IMG/VR virus record: IMGVR_UViG_2695420889_000011
Coordinates: 1-11,785 of that record
Direction: 5' to 3' (one strand)
Source: a virus
Taxonomy: Duplodnaviria > Heunggongvirae > Uroviricota > Caudoviricetes
Length of the DNA stretch: 11,785 nt
Shown: positions 7,046-11,785 of the stretch, one piece after another
Position numbering within the stretch: the first letter of the stretch is position 1
How the letters are laid out: every line of letters starts with the position of its first letter
Notes under the pieces: model-generated
What the model was told of the DNA's origin: nothing
Databases searched by the model: none
What the model saw: only the letters and a program-made list of their open reading frames with translations
Made by a program: the position numbers and the translations under genes

Positions 7046-7393
7046 TTACTTATCACATAAATCAAATGCAGCCTTAGTGACATCCCCTAGGCTCTTTTTT
7101 AACCCTGGGGCGGCATCATTATCTAGCCAAAATGGATTATTGTTATCTAACGGTAACGCACCAAATGTTTTACCTTTTATTCGAGCCAAACCTGTAAGTG
7201 CATATAACTTATTATCGTCAAAATTCATCACATAAGGATTACCATCAAGACACTGTAATTGAACCTCATCAGTATTAAATGGCCATACCCCATTGAAACT
7301 CTCACGTTCAATAGTTTTAAAAGGCATTGCGACGGCGGAAAAAGAAAACATAGATAAAAAAGTAACTAATAGTTGAACCTTTTTTACTTTCAT
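7046..7393 (-). CDS. Secreted/periplasmic small protein with signal peptide; possibly DUF2511 (YebY-like)
   Basis: 115-aa ORF with SD GAGGT 6 nt upstream. N-terminal signal peptide MKVKKVQLLVTFLSMFSFSAVA. The mature part has the pattern W-x-FN-x-[DE]EV-x-L-x-C-x-x-GN ... DN-x-x-PG-x-KKSL ... LC with two Cys; the resemblance to YebY is from memory only. Stop is 5 bp before the int start. Confidence 0.55.
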   Translation of the reverse strand: MKVKKVQLLVTFLSMFSFSAVAMPFKTIERESFNGVWPFNTDEVQLQCLDGNPYVMNFDDNKLYALTGLARIKGKTFGALPLDNNNPFWLDNDAAPGLKKSLGDVTKAAFDLCDK

Positions 7394-7422
7394 ATCATTA
7401 CCTCAATTTAGCTCAAGTAAGA

Positions 7423-8073
7423 TTACAAATTAAAAAACGCCCTAGAAATGACACCGCCTACCAAAACCCCTACGCAGATAAAGAATATTATTTCTTTTGG
7501 ATAAAGTCGGATTAATTCTGAAGCACGAAGTCGGACTTCTGGTAAGGTCGAACTCTCTGTGTGGCTTGATGCCGATTGTTGCTCTAACCACGACAATGCA
7601 GACTGTAACTGAGAACGAGTAAGATCGTTTAAACGTCCTGTACCGAAATTGATATGGCAATACCGCAGAAGTTTTTGTCGAAGTCCACAGTCTTCACTGT
7701 TACGTAGTAATAAACTTACAAGAGCCTTACAGGCATCATGATCTTTACATCGCTCAAGCATTGCATGCAGAAAACTCTCCGCTGTTTTATATTGATTTAC
7801 TGTCATATCATCAATACCAGCTACACCAATCTCCGCATGTACTTTTTGCCAAATAATAAACGCTTCAGTATTGCTAGCTTCTGCAATAGCAGCAACCAAG
7901 CTATTCAGCTCCTTACGCTGAGCCTTAAGCAAAGGGCGATCGTCATCATCATTATTCGAAGGGATTGCGATATTGACGGTATGAGAACCATCATATCGCT
8001 CTATCTGAATATTCTTTTCGTGAAAATCACGCCCAGCAACGCGATTGTTTGAACCGTTTGAGTTGACGGCCAT
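7423..8073 (-). CDS. Hypothetical protein (216 aa) with C-terminal transmembrane anchor
   Basis: Strong SD GGGAGGTG just upstream of the ATG, 15 bp after the repressor stop. Single hydrophobic C-terminal helix IIFFICVGVLVGGVISRAFF. The N-terminus shares an NNR[VI]AGRD[FY] motif with the C-terminus of the upstream repressor. Confidence 0.6.
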   Translation of the reverse strand: MAVNSNGSNNRVAGRDFHEKNIQIERYDGSHTVNIAIPSNNDDDDRPLLKAQRKELNSLVAAIAEASNTEAFIIWQKVHAEIGVAGIDDMTVNQYKTAESFLHAMLERCKDHDACKALVSLLLRNSEDCGLRQKLLRYCHINFGTGRLNDLTRSQLQSALSWLEQQSASSHTESSTLPEVRLRASELIRLYPKEIIFFICVGVLVGGVISRAFFNL

Positions 8074-8088
8074 GTCACCTCCCTACTA

Positions 8089-8493
8089 TCACCTACCCTT
8101 AGTTTCGTTATAGTCACGACCAGCGATACGGTTATTACCACCAGAAATATTTAACTCACGTCCTGATAGCTGAGTTTCCTTTTCACTGATCGCACCTTTT
8201 AAAGCCCCAATCACCGCGTTTTTCACATCTAACGAAGCTGCTCGAAAGCGAGTAATCAACTCCTGCTCATCATCGTTATAAGTTTCAGGTGAGTGAATTC
8301 CCAACACAACATACTGAACATCAAGGCCAAAACGAGACAGCGCTGCCAAATACGCAGCATCAGGAAAGCTATCTCCTTTCTCATATCTAAGCTGAGTTAG
8401 CTTTTTGACTCCACCAATGTCGCTCATGGCAACTTGACTAAGTCCCAATCTTTCCCTTTCCTCACGCAACCGCTGACCAATATCATTTTTCAT
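8089..8493 (-). CDS. XRE-family helix-turn-helix transcriptional regulator (CI-like repressor candidate)
   Basis: The N-terminus IGQRLREERERLGLSQVAMSDIGGVKKLTQLRYEKGDSFPDAAYLAALSRFGLDVQYVV is a typical HTH_XRE (Cro/C1-type) domain. First gene of the leftward operon ending in int, facing a divergent promoter region. Confidence 0.7.
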   Translation of the reverse strand: MKNDIGQRLREERERLGLSQVAMSDIGGVKKLTQLRYEKGDSFPDAAYLAALSRFGLDVQYVVLGIHSPETYNDDEQELITRFRAASLDVKNAVIGALKGAISEKETQLSGRELNISGGNNRIAGRDYNETKGR

Positions 8494-8502
8494 ACAAAAA
8501 CC

Positions 8503-8531
8503 TTGACAGGTATCTTTTTTGATACCAAAAT
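8503..8531. promoter_or_regulatory. Divergent promoter region with palindromic operator candidate GGTATC-T6-GATACC
   Basis: TTGACA at 8503-8508; perfect inverted repeat GGTATCTTTTTTGATACC at 8509-8526 occupying the spacer; weak -10-like CAAAAT at 8526-8531 with 17-bp spacing. Lies between the divergently transcribed repressor gene and the rightward operon. Confidence 0.35.
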
Positions 8532-8568
8532 GATTTCACGAGCTATTAGATGATCACAATATACCACT

Positions 8569-8775
8569 ATGAAACAAGTTCTTCACGATACCAGATCACG
8601 CATTCCGCGTAACACCGCCACAGGTCCAAGACTGGCACTTCGGCTGTCCCTCGAGGAGCGAGCCGTCATTGATGAAATGGCAGCTAAAGAACAACGCTCA
8701 TCCTCTAACATGGCGCGCATGATCTTCCTTCGCGGCCTAGAGCTAACCCAGAAAGAACAAAACAAATCTTCCTGA
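8569..8775 (+). CDS. Small DNA-binding protein candidate (ribbon-helix-helix-like), first gene of the rightward operon
   Basis: 68-aa ORF. The segment RLALRLSLEERAVIDEMAAKEQRSSSNMARMIFLRGL fits the beta-strand/helix/helix pattern of RHH regulators. No clear SD. The antisense ORF 8583-8765 looks like low-complexity junk. Confidence 0.4.
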   Translation: MKQVLHDTRSRIPRNTATGPRLALRLSLEERAVIDEMAAKEQRSSSNMARMIFLRGLELTQKEQNKSS

Positions 8776-8791
8776 TCAGGAGGCTAGTGGG

Positions 8792-8995
8792 ATGTCAGGT
8801 ATAACCATCAATATCAATGTGAATGCCCCCTATGTATCCCTGCAGAAATATGCAGAGATAACAGGTATCCCTCTTAATACATGCAAAAAGATGTTGGCTG
8901 ACGGTCGAATTATTATCCGCCCCAAACGCGCCAAAATGGAAAAGCCTGAAGTAAACCTTGTGGCGATGTTAAAAGACGCTTTGGCTAACAGCTAA
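8792..8995 (+). CDS. Small HTH protein, excisionase/AlpA-like regulator candidate
   Basis: 67-aa ORF with strong SD AGGAGG (8778-8783). The segment YVSLQKYAEITGIPLNTCKKMLADGRI is HTH-like, as in Xis/AlpA-type proteins. Confidence 0.5.
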   Translation: MSGITININVNAPYVSLQKYAEITGIPLNTCKKMLADGRIIIRPKRAKMEKPEVNLVAMLKDALANS

Positions 8996-9016
8996 AACAA
9001 TGAACAGAGCACCATC

Positions 9017-9367
9017 ATGAAAAAAAACGCTAATAATCCATACTCCAAATTTCGTAATGGCGTAGAACGCCATGTACACCACGTCGCTACCAGTGCATCA
9101 CGTAGTAACAGTCGCTATAACCTGAACGAAACACACGCAACACCGGATGGCCACGCTGTAAAACAAATCGGCGAGCATACCTGGCTGATTGAGAAAGCTG
9201 GAATCGTGGTCCACAAATGCCCACGCAATCCGTTTACCGGAAACCGCATTTTTGCATTGAGCTGCGGAGACAATCACTTCGGACAGGATTTCACATTATA
9301 CGAAGCACTTCGCACGGTTGATCGTCTGCTTCGCGGGCAAAGTTTTATTAAACAGGCTGATTTATAA
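9017..9367 (+). CDS. Hypothetical protein (116 aa)
   Basis: Intact ORF in the rightward operon; no recognisable motif; weak SD. Confidence 0.45.
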   Translation: MKKNANNPYSKFRNGVERHVHHVATSASRSNSRYNLNETHATPDGHAVKQIGEHTWLIEKAGIVVHKCPRNPFTGNRIFALSCGDNHFGQDFTLYEALRTVDRLLRGQSFIKQADL

Positions 9368-9377
9368 CAGGTGCTTT

Positions 9378-9692
9378 ATGACCAAAGAGCATGCACAAGG
9401 TGTATTTATCCGTTTTATTGATTTTCGCGGTGAACTGTTATTACGCGCATCCGCTATTGATGGAGTGGCTCCGGCGGGTAAAAACGGAGCCGACGAAGCC
9501 ACTTACGTTTATCTGAACGGCACGCGACTGCTTGTGGAACTTCCGTACCAGACCGTACGAGAAATCATTAGTGAAGCTGAAAAGGCACGCCTGGCTAATG
9601 GCGTGAACCCTATATCGAAATTATTTGTATGGATTCAGAAACTGAAATTCAGAAAGCAGATTAAAGGGCGTTGCGATGGGCAAAGAATATAA
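9378..9692 (+). CDS. Hypothetical protein (104 aa); start moved to the internal ATG at 9378
   Basis: The ORF-track start at 9318 would overlap the preceding gene by 50 bp. The in-frame ATG at 9378 has SD AGGTG 6 nt upstream and lies just after the preceding stop (9365-9367). Confidence 0.45.
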   Translation: MTKEHAQGVFIRFIDFRGELLLRASAIDGVAPAGKNGADEATYVYLNGTRLLVELPYQTVREIISEAEKARLANGVNPISKLFVWIQKLKFRKQIKGRCDGQRI

Positions 9693-9918
9693 AACTCTCA
9701 TTAACAAAGCACTTGAGCGTTTTTATTTTCGCTTAAGTGCATCAGGCGCTCATGCTGAACGAGCAGCCCGTGACTCATTGACCAGGGCAATCCGGAGTCT
9801 GTATGACGTGGCTTTTTACGCTGATGATCTGGATGCACTTAACGAACTTTCCGAGCTGATCTGTGCCGCAGAATGCGGGGAACATATTGAACCGTATAAG
9901 CTGGGGAATATTGCATGA
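9676..9918 (+). CDS. Hypothetical protein (80 aa)
   Basis: Intact ORF with AAGGG about 8 nt upstream; overlaps the 9378-9692 gene by 17 bp, consistent with an operon. Confidence 0.45.
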   Translation: MGKEYKTLINKALERFYFRLSASGAHAERAARDSLTRAIRSLYDVAFYADDLDALNELSELICAAECGEHIEPYKLGNIA

Positions 9919-10028
9919 GTATATTTATCTCATGGCTTGTTCTGATTATTTCGGTGGCCTGCGCCATTGGGATTATGCGAATTATTCATTCAGTAAAAAA
10001 GATTGAACGCTTTTTCACTGGTGAATAA
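9915..10028 (+). CDS. Small hydrophobic peptide (37 aa, MSIFISWLVLIISVACAIGIMRIIHSVKKIERFFTGE), single predicted TM helix
   Basis: Hand-translated; not in the ORF track because it is under 60 aa. Its ATG overlaps the stop of the upstream gene (ATGA at 9915-9918), suggesting translational coupling. Confidence 0.3.
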   Translation: MSIFISWLVLIISVACAIGIMRIIHSVKKIERFFTGE

Positions 10029-10121
10029 CGATACAAATAAAGCATCAAATTAAATAAGAAAACGTGAAAACCATCCGTATTAACGGAGGTATTCGCACAC
10101 GCAAATAACGGAGATACAAAA

Positions 10122-10532
10122 ATGCACGCAAAAGAAGAAGGTATCATCAGAGCACTGAAAGAAATTTCAAAGACAGAAAACGAAGTAGCGAAAAAAGCCG
10201 TGGCAAATGCACATATGGACGTCGCAACCCACACACTGATAGTCGCAAGAGTCACGGCAGAAGCAGCCGAAATTATCGCAAAACAGGATGCTGAACTGGC
10301 GGTTCTCAGAACACAACCAGTCACCGGACTGGATTTGTCTAACACCGGACGCCTTATTTACACAATTGGCTCGGAGCTACAGCGATACACCATTATCGCC
10401 GGATTACAGGATAAATACCTGATCACTCCTCACCCCATAAGGGAATCAGAAATTCTGACAAATCTCCGCCTGATAGAACGCTCTCAAGTTGTATTCATTG
10501 ATGACGCGCAATGTGCCGTATTTAACGCATAG
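10122..10532 (+). CDS. Hypothetical protein (136 aa)
   Basis: Intact ORF with SD GGAG about 9 nt upstream; no recognisable motif. Confidence 0.5.
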   Translation: MHAKEEGIIRALKEISKTENEVAKKAVANAHMDVATHTLIVARVTAEAAEIIAKQDAELAVLRTQPVTGLDLSNTGRLIYTIGSELQRYTIIAGLQDKYLITPHPIRESEILTNLRLIERSQVVFIDDAQCAVFNA

Positions 10533-10555
10533 GGTTACTGGACAAAGGGGGCGCA

Positions 10556-10759
10556 ATGGCAATTAAGCATTTTCCCGTCGTTCGCTTTACCTCCAGAGGG
10601 CGCGAATACGAGGTCGACGAACGCCTGATTACCACTATCGACAAACATCGTTCGGAAAAGGATGCACACCACATCTACCTCACTGACGGCACTTACTTCT
10701 GCGCCACCAACGTGGCGCGGGTGAATCTTATCCGACAGGTACAGGAGCCACGCAGATGA
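10556..10759 (+). CDS. Hypothetical protein (67 aa)
   Basis: Intact ORF with SD AAGGGGG upstream; stop overlaps the next start (ATGA at 10756-10759). Confidence 0.5.
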   Translation: MAIKHFPVVRFTSRGREYEVDERLITTIDKHRSEKDAHHIYLTDGTYFCATNVARVNLIRQVQEPRR

Positions 10760-11022
10760 CCATTCTGGACTACATCGCTACTCATCCGGGGTGTAGCGGC
10801 GGAGAGATCGCCGCAGCACTGAATACCCCAACCACAGCCATTAATGCTGAGTTACGCCGACTTTGGCGCGGCGGCTTAGTCATCAGAACAAACCGCAGCA
10901 CAGGTGGTCGCGCTCGCAAAACAGGAGGCCAGGCTTCTTACCACGTAAACCCGATGCTGTTCGGGTGTAGTAATCCACTTACTCACATGTTTAACCAGCT
11001 ACTGAAGGAAGCCAGAGCATGA
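10756..11022 (+). CDS. Winged-helix DNA-binding protein candidate (88 aa)
   Basis: The segment LDYIATHPGCSGGEIAAALNTPTTAINAELRRLWRGGLV resembles a winged-HTH recognition module. SD AGGAG 10 nt upstream. Stop overlaps the next start (ATGA at 11019-11022). Confidence 0.5.
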   Translation: MTILDYIATHPGCSGGEIAAALNTPTTAINAELRRLWRGGLVIRTNRSTGGRARKTGGQASYHVNPMLFGCSNPLTHMFNQLLKEARA

Positions 11023-11318
11023 GCACCATCAACCACCAGAAGCTACGCGAACTGGCATTTGCCCTGCAACGAATGGCAACGCCTCAAAAATTACTGGCAT
11101 TTCGCGCAATGCTCTCGCCGTCTGCTGTGCTGGCACTGCTGGATCAGCTGGAGCACGCCAGAACCACTGCTCCAGCCATTCGCCTCACGCTCCATCATGA
11201 AATCGCTGATTTCTGCGCAACGCTGGGGGCACCTGGCGAACCGGAAACGCCGGAAGCAATGCAGCAAGAGCTGCTGCAACGCATCGATAACGTTTTTGAT
11301 TTTTTTCTGAACCAGTAA
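11019..11318 (+). CDS. Hypothetical protein (99 aa), last gene of the rightward operon
   Basis: Intact ORF translationally coupled to the upstream gene. Chosen over the overlapping alternative-frame ORFs 11059-11310 (+) and 11091-11357 (-) because of the coupling and operon context. Confidence 0.5.
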   Translation: MSTINHQKLRELAFALQRMATPQKLLAFRAMLSPSAVLALLDQLEHARTTAPAIRLTLHHEIADFCATLGAPGEPETPEAMQQELLQRIDNVFDFFLNQ

Positions 11319-11339
11319 GAAACCAGAACATGCACACAC

Positions 11340-11461
11340 AAAAAAACCGCTTGCCATGCCTCAATCGGTCAGGTTACATTTCCGCTGCACCTCATAAAAC
11401 GGGCGCCGGGATTCTCAACCCGATACAGAGCAAAGCGCATAACCGCGCAAGCGGTTTTTTT
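11340..11461 (+). terminator. Terminator-like structured element: 15-bp perfect long-range inverted repeat ending in a GNRA hairpin and T-run
   Basis: AAAAAAACCGCTTGC (11340-11354) is the exact reverse complement of GCAAGCGGTTTTTTT (11447-11461). A local hairpin AACCGC-GCAA-GCGGTT (11441-11456) is followed by a T-run. Located 22 bp after the operon stop. Confidence 0.4.
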
Positions 11462-11473
11462 GTGCGTACTGTA

Positions 11474-11502
11474 TTGCCACGTCTTTTTCGCGTCAGAATT
11501 AT
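11474..11502 (+). promoter_or_regulatory. Candidate sigma-70 promoter for the downstream leader and gene
   Basis: TTGCCA (11474-11479), 17-bp spacer, AATTAT (11497-11502). Sequence-only prediction. Confidence 0.3.
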
Positions 11503-11518
11503 GGCGGGGCGTACGGGG

Positions 11519-11633
11519 CCGACTTCGGTCGGACCGGATTCTTTGCTCTCCGGTGTTGAGAACCCTGTACGTCTCGCCACCCCGAGATTCTCAACTCTGG
11601 ATGGTGAGTTATTTCTATCACCGAGCAAAGAGG
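11519..11633 (+). promoter_or_regulatory. Structured 5' leader / riboregulatory element with alternative pairings that can occlude the SD of the downstream gene
   Basis: UUCG-tetraloop hairpin CCGAC-TTCG-GTCGG (11519-11532). Segment CTTTGCTCT...GTTGAGAACCC (11541-11565) is complementary to GATTCTCAAC (11586-11595) and GAGCAAAG (11623-11630), the latter abutting the SD AGAGG (about 11629-11633). It is also complementary to an upstream copy at 11408-11435. Confidence 0.35.
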
Positions 11634-11640
11634 CCACACC

Positions 11641-11785
11641 ATGGCAGACCGCAAACAGCACCGCGCTATCGCGGAGCGTCGTCACATCCAGACTGAAATC
11701 AACCGCAGACTTTCCCGCGCATCACGCGTCGCGCAAATCATGCACATCAATATGCTGCATGAGCGCAGCCACGCACTATCAAACA
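11641..11785 (+). CDS. Hypothetical protein, 5' part only (runs off the window end)
   Basis: ATG at 11641 with SD GAGG 7 nt upstream. Open frame MADRKQHRAIAERRHIQTEINRRLSRASRVAQIMHINMLHERSHALSN... continues to the window edge. Hand-translated; absent from the ORF track because of length. Confidence 0.45.
   Translation, partial: MADRKQHRAIAERRHIQTEINRRLSRASRVAQIMHINMLHERSHALSN

What the first reader, a model, noticed from the sequence alone, without database searches (positions are those of the whole stretch)
11408..11643. Three-part complementary RNA motif set forming mutually exclusive structures that can sequester the downstream ribosome-binding site
Segment 2 (11541-11565, CTTTGCTCT...GTTGAGAACCC) is the nested reverse complement of both segment 1 upstream (GGGATTCTCAAC at 11408-11419 and AGAGCAAAG at 11427-11435) and segment 3 downstream (GATTCTCAAC at 11586-11595 and GAGCAAAG at 11623-11630). 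Pairing of 2 with 3 buries the sequence abutting the SD of the gene starting at 11641, while pairing of 2 with 1 would free it. A candidate promoter (11474-11502) lies between segments 1 and 2, so segment 1 may act from a different transcript (operon 3' end or small RNA) as an anti-antisense. The seqA/seqB/seqC-like layout recalls the RNA-based immunity of satellite phage P4, but the sequences and context here are not obviously the same.
Basis: seen in the sequence. Interest (0 to 1): 0.65.

Follow-up and report, generated by a model that had tools for sequence, protein, structure and literature searches.

The report
P4-type antisense RNA immunity cassette
The three complementary segments are real and co-evolve, but they are a known phage regulator, the IsrK/C4 (P4 seqA-CI-seqC) antisense-RNA cassette, here in a P2-like prophage just before an anti-repressor-like gene.

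Summary
TTCTCAAC and GAGCAAAG each occur three times in the 11.8-kb window. All six copies lie in 11412-11630, in +,-,+ orientation.

Rfam places segment 2 in the unpaired loop and junction of a C4 antisense RNA (RF01695, 11497-11584, 76 bits). It places segment 1 inside an IsrK-like sRNA (RF01394, 11387-11461, 58 bits) that ends in an intrinsic terminator. Segment 3 ends on the Shine-Dalgarno sequence of a gene related to P4 epsilon, the helper derepression protein.

Phage P4 carries the same two families in the same order, where they are known as seqA, CI RNA and seqC. N15 and a lambdoid phage carry them upstream of anti-repressor genes.

In 29 near-identical cassettes from P88-like phages, variation is concentrated in six blocks. 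Both pairings are kept by compensatory changes: 95-96% of cells are paired, against 29-58% when the partners are slid. These 29 sequences carry 13 specificities that do not cross-match.

The likely mechanism is that processed C4 RNA pairs with segment 3 and blocks translation of the epsilon-like gene, with possible polarity on replication gene A. Segment 1 would act as an autoregulatory target or decoy.

This is a new member of a known kind, in a P2-like rather than a P4-like element. Interest is low to moderate.

The parts
11334..11354 (+). Left arm of a 21-nt inverted repeat whose right arm (11447-11467) is the 3' half of the IsrK terminator plus its U-tract. It could be an antiterminator for transcripts that arrive from the upstream early operon. 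It is also an A-tract just upstream of the -35 hexamer.
   Evidence: I1, 95% complementary; terminator-stem probability 0.61 for a transcript from 11387, 0.001 for one from 11300. The role is inferred only.
11351..11380 (+). Sigma-70-like promoter (TTGCCA-18-TACATT) that ends 7 nt before the IsrK-like 5' end. It is the counterpart of P4 PLE and Gifsy-1 PisrK.
   Evidence: The hexamers are invariant in 29 cassettes while the spacer varies. P4 has TTGCCT...TATAGT in the same position.
11387..11461 (+). IsrK-like small RNA (the P4 seqA region). It has two 5' hairpins, the a1 and b1 target sequences, and an intrinsic terminator.
   Evidence: Rfam RF01394, 58.4 bits against a gathering score of 50, full-length match; fold.
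11412..11419 (+). a1 (TTCTCAAC), in the loop and 3' side of IsrK hairpin 2. It is complementary to a'.
11427..11435 (+). b1 (AGAGCAAAG), in the single-stranded linker of IsrK. It is complementary to b'.
11441..11461 (+). Intrinsic terminator of IsrK (AACCGC-GCAA-GCGGTT followed by Ts). It is the counterpart of P4 terminator t1.
   Evidence: The stem is invariant and only the loop varies in the alignment.
11474..11502 (+). It is doubtful. The -10 hexamer is the conserved 5' flank of the C4 model, and a start site there would fall inside the C4 5' stem.
   Evidence: The -35 varies (TTGCCA/TCGCCA/TTGCTA/TTGCCG); Rfam alignment.
11497..11584 (+). C4/CI-type antisense RNA. A 17-bp closing stem runs from 11502-11518 to 11563-11579. 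There are two inner hairpins and a 3' ACC(C) tail. The likely mature RNA is about 11502-11582.
   Evidence: Rfam RF01695, 76.1 bits against a gathering score of 45, full-length match. MFE -47.6 kcal/mol, z -4.86.
11539..11549 (+). b' (UUCUUUGCUCU), the loop of C4 hairpin 2. It is the specificity determinant that pairs with b1 or b2.
   Evidence: opening cost 1.5 kcal/mol
11555..11562 (+). a' (GUUGAGAA), the single-stranded junction of C4. It is the specificity determinant that pairs with a1 or a2.
   Evidence: opening cost 0.02 kcal/mol
11588..11595 (+). a2 (TTCTCAAC), the first half of the downstream target (P4 seqC), 9 nt after the C4 3' stem.
11623..11632 (+). b2 (GAGCAAAGAG), the second half of the downstream target. 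It overlaps the SD AAGAGG (11628-11633), and the ATG is at 11641.
   Evidence: duplex with b' -13.9 kcal/mol
11641..11785 (+). First 48 codons of a 76-aa gene that runs off the window. It is a P4 epsilon-like 'derepression' (anti-repressor) protein. In full-length relatives it is followed by a 121-aa ORF and the replication endonuclease gene A.
   Evidence: Pfam PF25738, 32.7 bits against a gathering score of 27; 32% identity to P4 epsilon, E 6e-9; gene order.

Best explanation
The finding is the RNA immunity cassette known from satellite phage P4 (seqA - CI RNA/seqB - seqC), from P1/P7 (a1b1 - c4 - a2b2), from N15, and from Gifsy-1 (IsrK - STnc1160). Here it sits inside the early operon of a P88-like (Xuanwuvirus, P2-family) prophage of E. 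coli.

Proposed mechanism:

1. A promoter at 11351-11380 starts transcription at about 11387.
2. Most transcripts stop at the intrinsic terminator (11441-11461). This gives a short IsrK-like RNA that carries a1 and b1.
3. Read-through transcripts, and transcripts arriving from the upstream early promoter, contain the C4 element.
4. C4 folds into a stable tRNA-like stem structure and is cut out. RNase P would cut at U11501|G11502, and the 3' end would be trimmed after the ACC tail.
5. Mature C4 exposes b' (a loop) and a' (a junction). These pair with a2 and b2 in the leader, and the b2 pairing covers the Shine-Dalgarno sequence.
6. Ribosomes therefore cannot start on the epsilon-like anti-repressor gene. 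The untranslated, C-rich message is then likely to be terminated, which would lower expression of the next ORF and of replication gene A.
7. The identical a1/b1 copy upstream competes for C4. In the nascent transcript it would serve C4 autoregulation at the terminator, as reported for P4 t1. As free IsrK RNA it would titrate C4 and turn the downstream genes on, as reported for Gifsy-1 IsrK.

Shown here:
- family membership;
- fold and exposure of a' and b';
- target geometry and overlap with the SD;
- three-way covariation;
- orthogonality of the specificity types;
- identity of the downstream gene.

Inferred from the characterised relatives:
- processing of C4;
- action in trans;
- transcriptional polarity;
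- the direction of the effect of IsrK;
- the biological role, which I take to be a second immunity layer or induction gate.
For: - **Rfam.** C4 scores 76.1 bits and isrK 58.4 bits. Both are full-length and above their gathering scores.
- **Other phages.** P4's immunity region gives the same pair in the same order: C4 74.9 bits, isrK 60.8 bits, plus c4-a1b1 at 44.1 bits. P88, N15 and lambdoid phage 1720a-02 do too. In N15 and 1720a-02 the annotated downstream genes include anti-repressors.
- **P4 layout.** It matches base for base in design: promoter, seqA hairpins, terminator, CI, then seqC whose b2 (TTCACAGGA) runs into the SD AGGAGG and the ATG.
- **Fold.** C4 has an MFE of -47.6 kcal/mol, z -4.86. 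a' and b' are essentially unpaired, with opening costs of 0.02 and 1.5 kcal/mol. Duplexes are b':b2 -13.9, a':a2 -8.5 to -10.2, and b':b1 -11.5 kcal/mol.
- **Family-wide test.** Among 52 distinct a'/b' combinations, a locus's own flanks carry a perfect complement of 7 nt or more in 85-98% of cases. Cross-locus controls give 3-5%.
- **Fixed geometry.** a2 lies about 9-10 nt after C4, b2 about 41-44 nt after it, and the start codon 9-12 nt after b2.
- **P88-type alignment (29 sequences).**
  - For the 1:2 pairing, 95.9% of cells are paired, 11 of 17 pairs show double changes, and there are 104 compensatory cells.
  - For the 2:3 pairing, 95.4% of cells are paired, 10 of 18 pairs show double changes, and there are 96 compensatory cells.
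  - Slid controls give 29-58% paired.
  - Identity is 70% inside the six blocks and 93% outside. There are 13 specificities.
  - None of 156 ordered pairs of distinct specificities matches at both determinants.
- **Downstream gene.** It hits Pfam Derepression and is 32% identical to P4 epsilon. Its CDS is C-rich and G-poor, with C/G 1.67.
- **Literature.**
  - IsrK is described as the structural homologue of P4 seqA and C4 as that of CI RNA, and the pair is called the 'IsrK-C4 immunity system' (PMC3632133).
  - IsrK activates the downstream anti-repressor in trans, and the C4-like STnc1160 depends on the isrK promoter (PMC4825925).
Against: - No expression, processing or genetic data exist for this element or any P88-type cassette in the literature I could search.
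- Nested-structure folding predicts that in a full read-through transcript segment 1 pairs with segment 2 in cis and unfolds C4. The SD stays about 60% open. This is the Gifsy-1 'structure A' situation and could limit C4 maturation.
- A crude thermodynamic mimic of C4 bound to a1/b1 did not change the predicted probability of the terminator hairpin (0.61 against 0.63). The P4-like autoregulation step is therefore not supported by my calculation.
- Every read-through transcript carries two target sets per C4. Repression therefore needs C4 to outlive the mRNA.
- Rho-dependent polarity rests only on base composition.
Confidence: 0.78

Rival explanations
1. A purely cis-acting RNA switch. Within one transcript, segment 2 pairs either with segment 3 (RBS buried) or with segment 1 (RBS free). 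No processed trans-acting RNA is involved.
For: - The full read-through transcript is predicted to pair segment 1 with segment 2 in cis. Its energy is -117.4 kcal/mol, against about -101 for the separately folded modules.
- In Gifsy-1 such a cis helix between the middle of IsrK and the downstream region was shown by compensatory mutations and native gels (PMC4825925).
- If the C4 5' stem is truncated (transcript from 11509), segments 2 and 3 pair in cis and the SD is only 7% open.
Against: - Segment 2 lies in the unpaired parts of an autonomous, very stable fold that is conserved across phage families and scored by a structure-aware model.
- With C4 intact, the cis 2:3 pairing is not predicted and the SD is 72% open.
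- Specificity types are orthogonal. This is expected for a diffusible immunity factor and is not needed for a cis switch.
- Homologues in P1, P4 and N15 act in trans (own knowledge; the Citron & Schuster 1990 and Sabbattini 1995 titles are cited).
Confidence: 0.1
2. Activator logic dominates, as in Gifsy-1. The important regulator is the short IsrK-like RNA (segment 1). It acts in trans on the read-through mRNA or on C4 to switch on the epsilon-like anti-repressor and so trigger prophage induction. C4 repression is only the background state.
For: - The promoter-plus-terminator unit makes segment 1 a separate RNA.
- IsrK overexpression activates the downstream anti-repressor 100-fold or more, and the isrK promoter is needed for Gifsy-1 induction.
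- a1/b1 are identical to a2/b2 in their cores, so IsrK is a perfect decoy for C4.
- P88 virions are recovered after mitomycin C treatment (PMC5285337).
Against: - In Gifsy-1 the regulated ORF (orf45) starts inside the C4-like region and is coupled to anrP. Here the regulated gene has its own SD next to b2, as in P4.
- a1 is partly buried in IsrK hairpin 2, with an opening cost of 3.9 kcal/mol.
- Nothing links isrK promoter activity to an inducing signal here.
- This rival is compatible with the main explanation rather than exclusive of it.
Confidence: 0.3
3. The region is protein-coding, and the repeats are by-products of that. Candidates are an 'Ash family' pseudogene, the minus-strand ORF annotated in P88, and the long ORF that starts at ATG 11501.
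For: - PV468777 carries a misc_feature 'similar to ash family protein' over the region, and P88 has a minus-strand 'hypothetical protein' there.
- N15 gene 32 and the 1720a-02 'antirepressor' CDS overlap the RNA hits.
- An ORF of 148 codons starts at 11501.
Against: - The ORFs have no Pfam or NCBIfam hit.
- RefSeq annotates no CDS there in the identical E. coli locus.
- Variation is confined to six short blocks that change in a base-pair-compensating way.
- The alignment has 1- and 2-nt indels in the region.
- The structure-aware RNA models score far above threshold.
Confidence: 0.02
4. The cassette serves mainly helper-satellite warfare. C4 from the P2-like prophage silences incoming P4-like satellites, or the reverse, because the two share the cassette scaffold.
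For: - The same scaffold occurs in P4-like satellites and in this helper-type phage.
- Barquist et al. suggested that such cassettes in prophages might protect against satellites.
Against: - Among 13 P88-type and 39 other specificities (507 pairs), none matched at both determinants with 7 nt or more.
- The cassette's own downstream target is always matched. Self-regulation therefore explains the conservation.
Confidence: 0.05

Closest known systems
Satellite phage P4 immunity region (PLE - seqA - t1 - CI RNA/seqB - seqC - first ORF ... epsilon ... alpha)
   Same: - It has the same two Rfam families in the same order with almost the same scores.
- The promoter lies directly before the IsrK-like element, and an intrinsic terminator lies between seqA and CI.
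- a' sits in the junction and b' in the loop.
- b2 runs into the SD of the first gene.
- An epsilon homologue is encoded downstream.
- Even the 'perfect run, one mismatch, G-C clamp' form of the a1:a' pairing is shared. The perfect run is 7 bp in P4 and 8 bp here.
   Different: - The host element is a complete P2-like (helper-type) phage, not a satellite.
- The spacer between the terminator and C4 is 35 nt here and 107 nt in P4.
- The first regulated gene is the epsilon-like gene itself. In P4 it is a 65-aa ORF, with epsilon further downstream.
- The cassette is embedded in a longer operon and is bracketed by a 21-nt inverted repeat that P4 lacks.
- The specificity sequences differ.
Phage P1/P7 immI: a1b1 - c4 antisense RNA - a2b2 - icd - ant
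   Same: It is the founding member of Rfam C4 (RF01695). A processed antisense RNA uses its a' and b' sequences to pair with duplicated upstream and downstream targets, and b2 lies at the RBS of the first gene before an anti-repressor. Different a/b sequences define heteroimmune types. (Own knowledge of Citron & Schuster 1990, cited; the family names c4 and c4-a1b1 appear.)
   Different: - I did not analyse the P1 sequence itself.
- The P1 anti-repressor Ant and Icd are unrelated to the epsilon-like protein here.
- The upstream target here matches the isrK model, which includes a terminator, and not only the c4-a1b1 model.
Salmonella Gifsy-1 IsrK - orf45/STnc1160 - anrP
   Same: - It has an IsrK sRNA with its own promoter and a leaky terminator.
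- The read-through RNA carries a C4-like stable species.
- The middle of IsrK pairs with the downstream region.
- The output is an anti-repressor, and the locus affects prophage induction.
   Different: - The published Gifsy-1 mechanism is activation by IsrK in trans, through translation of orf45 coupled to anrP.
- Here the regulated gene has its own SD next to b2, and no conserved orf45 equivalent exists.
- The host is a lambdoid phage, not a P2-like one.
Phage N15 secondary immunity (CA RNA - antirepressor) and lambdoid/Stx phage cassettes
   Same: The isrK and C4 Rfam hits are in tandem upstream of anti-repressor genes.
   Different: The phage families and the regulated proteins differ. Identity to the window cassette is only about 70-75%.

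Membership tests
Rfam RF01695 C4 antisense RNA | Covariance-model score at or above the curated gathering score, over the full model | tested here: met
   76.1 bits against 45, model positions 1-87 of 87, window 11497-11584
Rfam RF01695 C4 antisense RNA | A long closing stem that encloses two hairpins, with b' in the second loop and a' in the 3' junction left single-stranded | tested here: met
   The MFE equals the centroid at -47.6 kcal/mol, z -4.86. Opening costs are 1.5 and 0.02 kcal/mol.
Rfam RF01695 C4 antisense RNA | Downstream a2/b2 targets complementary to a'/b', with b2 at the ribosome-binding site of the next gene | tested here: met
   a2 is at 11588-11595 and b2 at 11623-11632, overlapping the SD at 11628-11633. 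95.4% of cells are paired and 10 of 18 pairs covary. The geometry is conserved in 49 loci.
Rfam RF01695 C4 antisense RNA | Upstream a1/b1 copy of the targets | tested here: met
   a1 is at 11412-11419 and b1 at 11427-11435. 95.9% of cells are paired and 11 of 17 pairs covary.
Rfam RF01695 C4 antisense RNA | Excision from a longer precursor (RNase P at the 5' end) and action in trans as an immunity factor | not testable with these tools
   Only features consistent with this are seen: an invariant U at -1 and G at +1 (AAUUAU|GG), and a 3' ACC tail after the stem.
Rfam RF01394 isrK | Covariance-model score at or above the gathering score; two 5' hairpins plus an intrinsic terminator | tested here: met
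   58.4 bits against 50, model positions 1-77 of 77, window 11387-11461. Terminator.
Rfam RF01394 isrK | Own promoter that gives a discrete sRNA; Hfq binding | tested here: inconclusive
   A consensus promoter ends 7 nt before the 5' end, and its hexamers are invariant. There are no transcript or Hfq data.
P4-like satellite (element level) | Satellite gene set (alpha primase, sid, psu, delta) on an element of about 11 kb | tested here: not met
   The cassette lies in a P2-like phage with int, C-like repressor, cox, replication endonuclease A and parM. It is therefore a homologous cassette and not a P4-like satellite.
Pfam PF25738 Derepression (P4 epsilon) - downstream gene | HMM score at or above the gathering score; similarity to P4 epsilon | tested here: met
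   The full-length homologue L001:6342-6569 scores 32.7 bits against 27. It is 32% identical to P4 epsilon over 50 aa, E 6e-9. Binding to the phage repressor was not tested.

The most novel reading that the evidence does not exclude
In P88-like (Xuanwuvirus) P2-family phages, the P4-type IsrK/C4 cassette is a second, RNA-based immunity and induction gate placed directly on an epsilon-type anti-repressor and on replication gene A. P2 and 186 lack it. It comes in at least 13 orthogonal, modularly reshuffled specificity types. A 21-nt inverted repeat (11334-11354 / 11447-11467) makes the IsrK terminator promoter-dependent. Transcripts from the cassette's own promoter stop and make the IsrK decoy, while early-operon transcripts read through. 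This would also suggest that P4 satellites and this helper lineage exchanged their immunity-plus-derepression module.
Probability: 0.4. Interest if true: 0.5.

Novelty: new member of a known kind. Interest (0 to 1): 0.3.

Why it matters
- The cassette is in about 21% of complete E. coli genomes (1161 of 5426), including O157:H7 and O145 strains. It carries no RNA annotation in the records I inspected, and several phage records annotate it as protein.
- Recognising it assigns a regulatory function to an 'empty' 320-bp gap. It also predicts which P2-like prophages are heteroimmune.
- It points to an RNA-gated anti-repressor as a candidate route of induction for a P2-like lineage. P2 itself is classically non-inducible (own knowledge).
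- The sharply block-wise, compensated variation is a clean natural example of diversification of RNA-RNA specificity.
- Nothing here changes the known mechanism class.

Tried and rejected
1. **Chance complementarity.** Rejected by shuffles and by covariation.
2. **Protein-coding explanations.** I checked ORF 11460-11696 (+) and the 148-codon ORF from ATG 11501. I also considered ORF 11392-11685 (-) and the 'Ash family' label.
   - ORF 11460-11696 gave no Pfam or NCBIfam hit.
   - The alignment shows short indels, and the ORF from 11501 is not annotated in RefSeq.
3. **Cross-specificity between helper-type and P4-type cassettes.** None matched at both determinants.
4. **C4 binding to a1/b1 favouring the IsrK terminator.** A simple block-the-bases calculation showed no effect (0.61 to 0.63). 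I keep this step only as an analogy to P4 t1.
5. **A counterpart of the 21-nt antiterminator-like inverted repeat in P4-type loci.** None was found; the longest complement was 9 nt. My terminator detector skipped the P88-type loci. Their conservation was read instead, and it gives no covariation.
6. **Primary literature.** The main P4 paper (PMC176756) is not held. P4 and P1 mechanistic details therefore rest on my own knowledge plus citations seen.
7. **Literature on this cassette in P88-like or P2-like phages, or in the O157 P2-like prophage.** Searches found nothing specific.
8. **P2 and 186.** Their early/regulatory regions have no C4 or isrK hit.
9. **PADLOC scan of neighbouring unknown genes.** No hits.
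Full report
**1. The observation**

| Element | Sequence | Coordinates | Pairs with |
|---|---|---|---|
| a1 | TTCTCAAC | 11412-11419 | a' |
| a2 | TTCTCAAC | 11588-11595 | a' |
| a' | GTTGAGAA | 11555-11562 | a1 or a2 |
| b1 | AGAGCAAAG | 11427-11435 | b' |
| b2 | GAGCAAAGA(G) | 11623-11632 | b' |
| b' | (U)UCUUUGCUCU | 11539-11549 | b1 or b2 |

Each 8-mer occurs exactly three times in the 11,785-base window, counting both strands. All copies are in this stretch and in +,-,+ order. The expected count is about 0.5 per window, and 3 or more matches occurred in 1-1.5% of shuffles for each motif alone.

The b2 pairing covers five of the six bases of the Shine-Dalgarno sequence AAGAGG (11628-11633). 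That sequence lies 7 nt before the ATG at 11641.

**2. What it is**

An Rfam scan of the window at curated thresholds gives two hits, both in the finding.
- RF01695, C4 antisense RNA: 11497-11584, 76.1 bits against a gathering score of 45.
- RF01394, isrK: 11387-11461, 58.4 bits against a gathering score of 50.

Segment 2 is the loop of the second inner hairpin (b') plus the single-stranded junction (a') of C4. The rest of C4 is a 17-bp closing stem and a UUCG-capped hairpin. The MFE is -47.6 kcal/mol, z -4.86, and it equals the centroid. Making a' and b' single-stranded costs 0.02 and 1.5 kcal/mol.

Segment 1 lies in hairpin 2 and the linker of the IsrK-like RNA. That RNA ends in an intrinsic terminator at 11441-11461.

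A sigma-70-like promoter (TTGCCA-18-TACATT, 11351-11380) ends 7 nt before the IsrK 5' end.

**3. Context**

Window 6039-11785 is the left, early end of a P2-family prophage of the P88/Xuanwuvirus type.
- It is about 90% identical to the P88-like phages.
- It is 100% identical to E. coli O145:NM strain FWSEC0002.
- The gene order is integrase, two cargo ORFs and an HTH repressor on the minus strand. The plus strand then carries a small DNA-binding protein gene where P88 has cox, several small early ORFs, a MarR-type wHTH gene and an Ead/Ea22-like gene. The cassette follows.

The gene that starts at 11641 runs off the window.
- Its full-length homologue is 76 aa.
- It passes Pfam PF25738 'Derepression' (32.7 bits against 27).
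- It is 32% identical to P4 epsilon, annotated in the P4 record as the helper derepression protein. By my own knowledge epsilon inactivates the P2 repressor.
- In complete relatives a 121-aa ORF and replication endonuclease gene A follow.

The early/regulatory regions of P2 and 186 have no C4 or isrK hit, whereas P88 does.

**4. Relation to known systems**

P4's own immunity region gives C4 (74.9 bits, the CI RNA) and isrK (60.8 bits, the seqA region) in the same order. It also gives a near-threshold hit to RF03163, 'a1, b1 targets of C4'.

Reading the P4 sequence shows the same design: PLE promoter, seqA hairpins, terminator, CI, then seqC. The b2 of seqC (TTCACAGGA) runs into the SD AGGAGG and the ATG.

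N15 and a lambdoid phage (1720a-02) have the same tandem upstream of anti-repressor genes.

The published literature already equates these elements.
- IsrK is described as a structural homologue of P4 seqA, C4 as that of CI RNA, and the pair is called the 'IsrK-C4 immunity system' (PMC3632133; PMC4825925).
- The c4 and c4-a1b1 motifs are listed in PMC2864571.

**5.

A scan of IMG/VR with a pattern for the conserved C4 core returned 120 loci. They carry 52 distinct a'/b' combinations.

| Determinant and flank | Own flanks with a perfect complement of 7 nt or more | Cross-locus control |
|---|---|---|
| b' upstream | 87% | 5.3% |
| b' downstream | 85% | 4.6% |
| a' upstream | 92% | 5.2% |
| a' downstream | 98% | 3.0% |

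The geometry is fixed. In P88-type loci a1 lies 89 nt and b1 74 nt before the C4 stem. a2 lies 9 nt and b2 43-44 nt after it. The start codon follows b2 by 9-11 nt.

Twenty-nine distinct P88-type cassettes align with 90% mean column identity. Variation is concentrated in six blocks, which are exactly a1, b1, b', a', a2 and b2. Identity is 70% inside the blocks and 93% outside.

| Pairing | Cells paired | Pairs with changes on both sides | Compensatory cells |
|---|---|---|---|
| Segment 1 : segment 2 | 95.9% | 11 of 17 | 104 |
| Segment 2 : segment 3 | 95.4% | 10 of 18 | 96 |

Sliding the partners by 1-3 columns gives 29-58% paired. No shuffle reached the observed values.

There are 13 specificities, built from 5 a' and 10 b' variants in mixed combinations. 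None of the 156 ordered pairs of different specificities matches at both determinants. This is what heteroimmune antisense systems should look like.

**6. Mechanism**

What is shown here is the family membership, the fold, the exposed determinants, the targets, the SD overlap, the covariation, and the identity of the downstream gene.

By homology with P1, P4 and N15 (own knowledge), I infer the following.
- C4 is cut from read-through or early-operon transcripts. The invariant U|G at 11501/11502 and the 3' ACC tail fit an RNase P substrate.
- C4 then acts in trans on a2/b2, with duplex energies of -8.5 to -10 and -13.9 kcal/mol. This blocks initiation on the epsilon-like gene.
- The untranslated, C-rich message (C/G 1.67) would then be prone to premature termination. 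That would lower expression of gene A.

Segment 1 has two possible roles, which do not exclude each other.
- In P4, CI RNA plus seqA enhance termination at t1, which autoregulates CI. This is from my own knowledge of Briani et al. 2000, whose title is cited.
- In Gifsy-1, free IsrK RNA activates the downstream anti-repressor in trans.

My crude calculation did not reproduce an effect of C4 binding on the terminator hairpin.

Nested folding predicts a cis 1:2 helix in full read-through RNA, which is the Gifsy-1 'structure A'. It predicts a cis 2:3 helix only when the C4 stem is truncated. A pure cis switch is therefore less likely than trans action, although cis pairing may modulate how much C4 matures.

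**7.

It scores 9 of 12. Three points count against it.
- Its -10 hexamer is the conserved 5' flank of the C4 model.
- A start 5-9 nt downstream would delete part of the closing stem.
- Its -35 varies among cassettes.

In Gifsy-1 the C4-like RNA disappears when the isrK promoter is deleted. I regard this promoter as unlikely but not excluded.

**8. Verdict**

The element is an already well-known kind of regulator. What appears undescribed is its presence and diversity in the P88-like branch of P2-family phages, directly upstream of an epsilon-type gene. I found no paper on this. That makes it a new member of a known kind. It is widespread, in 1161 of 5426 complete E. coli genomes. It has no RNA annotation in the records I inspected.

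Noticed in passing
window 11334-11354 and 11447-11467: This 21-nt, 95% complementary inverted repeat is the longest in the region. It brackets the isrK promoter and the IsrK body. The right arm is the terminator's 3' half, its U-tract and GUG. Predicted terminator-stem probability is 0.61 for a transcript from 11387 and 0.001 for one from 11300. This suggests promoter-dependent antitermination for early-operon transcripts. The core CACAAAAAAACCGC / GCGGTTTTTTTGTG is conserved in the P88-type loci examined, and P4 and P4-type loci lack it. The left arm could equally be an UP-like A-tract.
   Followed up: partly
window 11501 onward (+), 11460-11696 (+), 11392-11685 (-); L001 6031-6291; L002 5033-5221; L129 1518-1808; L128 1441-2304: Long ORFs and database CDS or misc_feature annotations overlie the IsrK/C4 RNAs. 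The labels are 'similar to ash family protein', 'hypothetical protein', N15 'transcriptional repressor' and an N-terminally extended 'antirepressor'. They look like protein mis-annotations of RNA genes.
   Followed up: partly
window 11660-11674: A GC-rich hairpin (CCGCG-CUAU-CGCGG) lies 20 nt into the epsilon-like CDS. Its sequence resembles the IsrK terminator stem (direct repeat D2, 11442-11453 against 11660-11671, 83%), but it has no U-tract. It might correspond to an atypical terminator such as P4 t4. This was not tested.
   Followed up: no
window 1-6000: A separate element lies next to the prophage integrase. It has a second tyrosine recombinase (65-985), an 851-aa ORF (1871-4426) with no Pfam or PADLOC hit, two further unknown ORFs and IS3 remnants. 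RefSeq lists a 'DNA-directed DNA polymerase' among the features under the match. The full 6-kb stretch is found in only 30 of 5426 complete E. coli genomes, mostly O145 strains.
   Followed up: partly
window 7046-8073 (-): Two cargo ORFs lie between the prophage integrase and the repressor. One is a 114-aa DUF2511 protein and the other a 215-aa protein with no family hit. Neither has a PADLOC match. P88 itself lacks them.
   Followed up: no
alignment A1 (P88-type cassettes), for example L001, L002, L035, L038, L050, L058: The a and b determinants are reshuffled independently. Five a' and ten b' variants give 13 combinations. All three copies of each determinant change together in otherwise about 93% identical scaffolds. 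This suggests recombination or gene-conversion-like exchange of specificity blocks.
   Followed up: partly
E. coli genomes: Some genomes carry up to 4 copies of the cassette, and the window's own strain has 2 places. I did not examine whether co-resident copies always differ in specificity.
   Followed up: no
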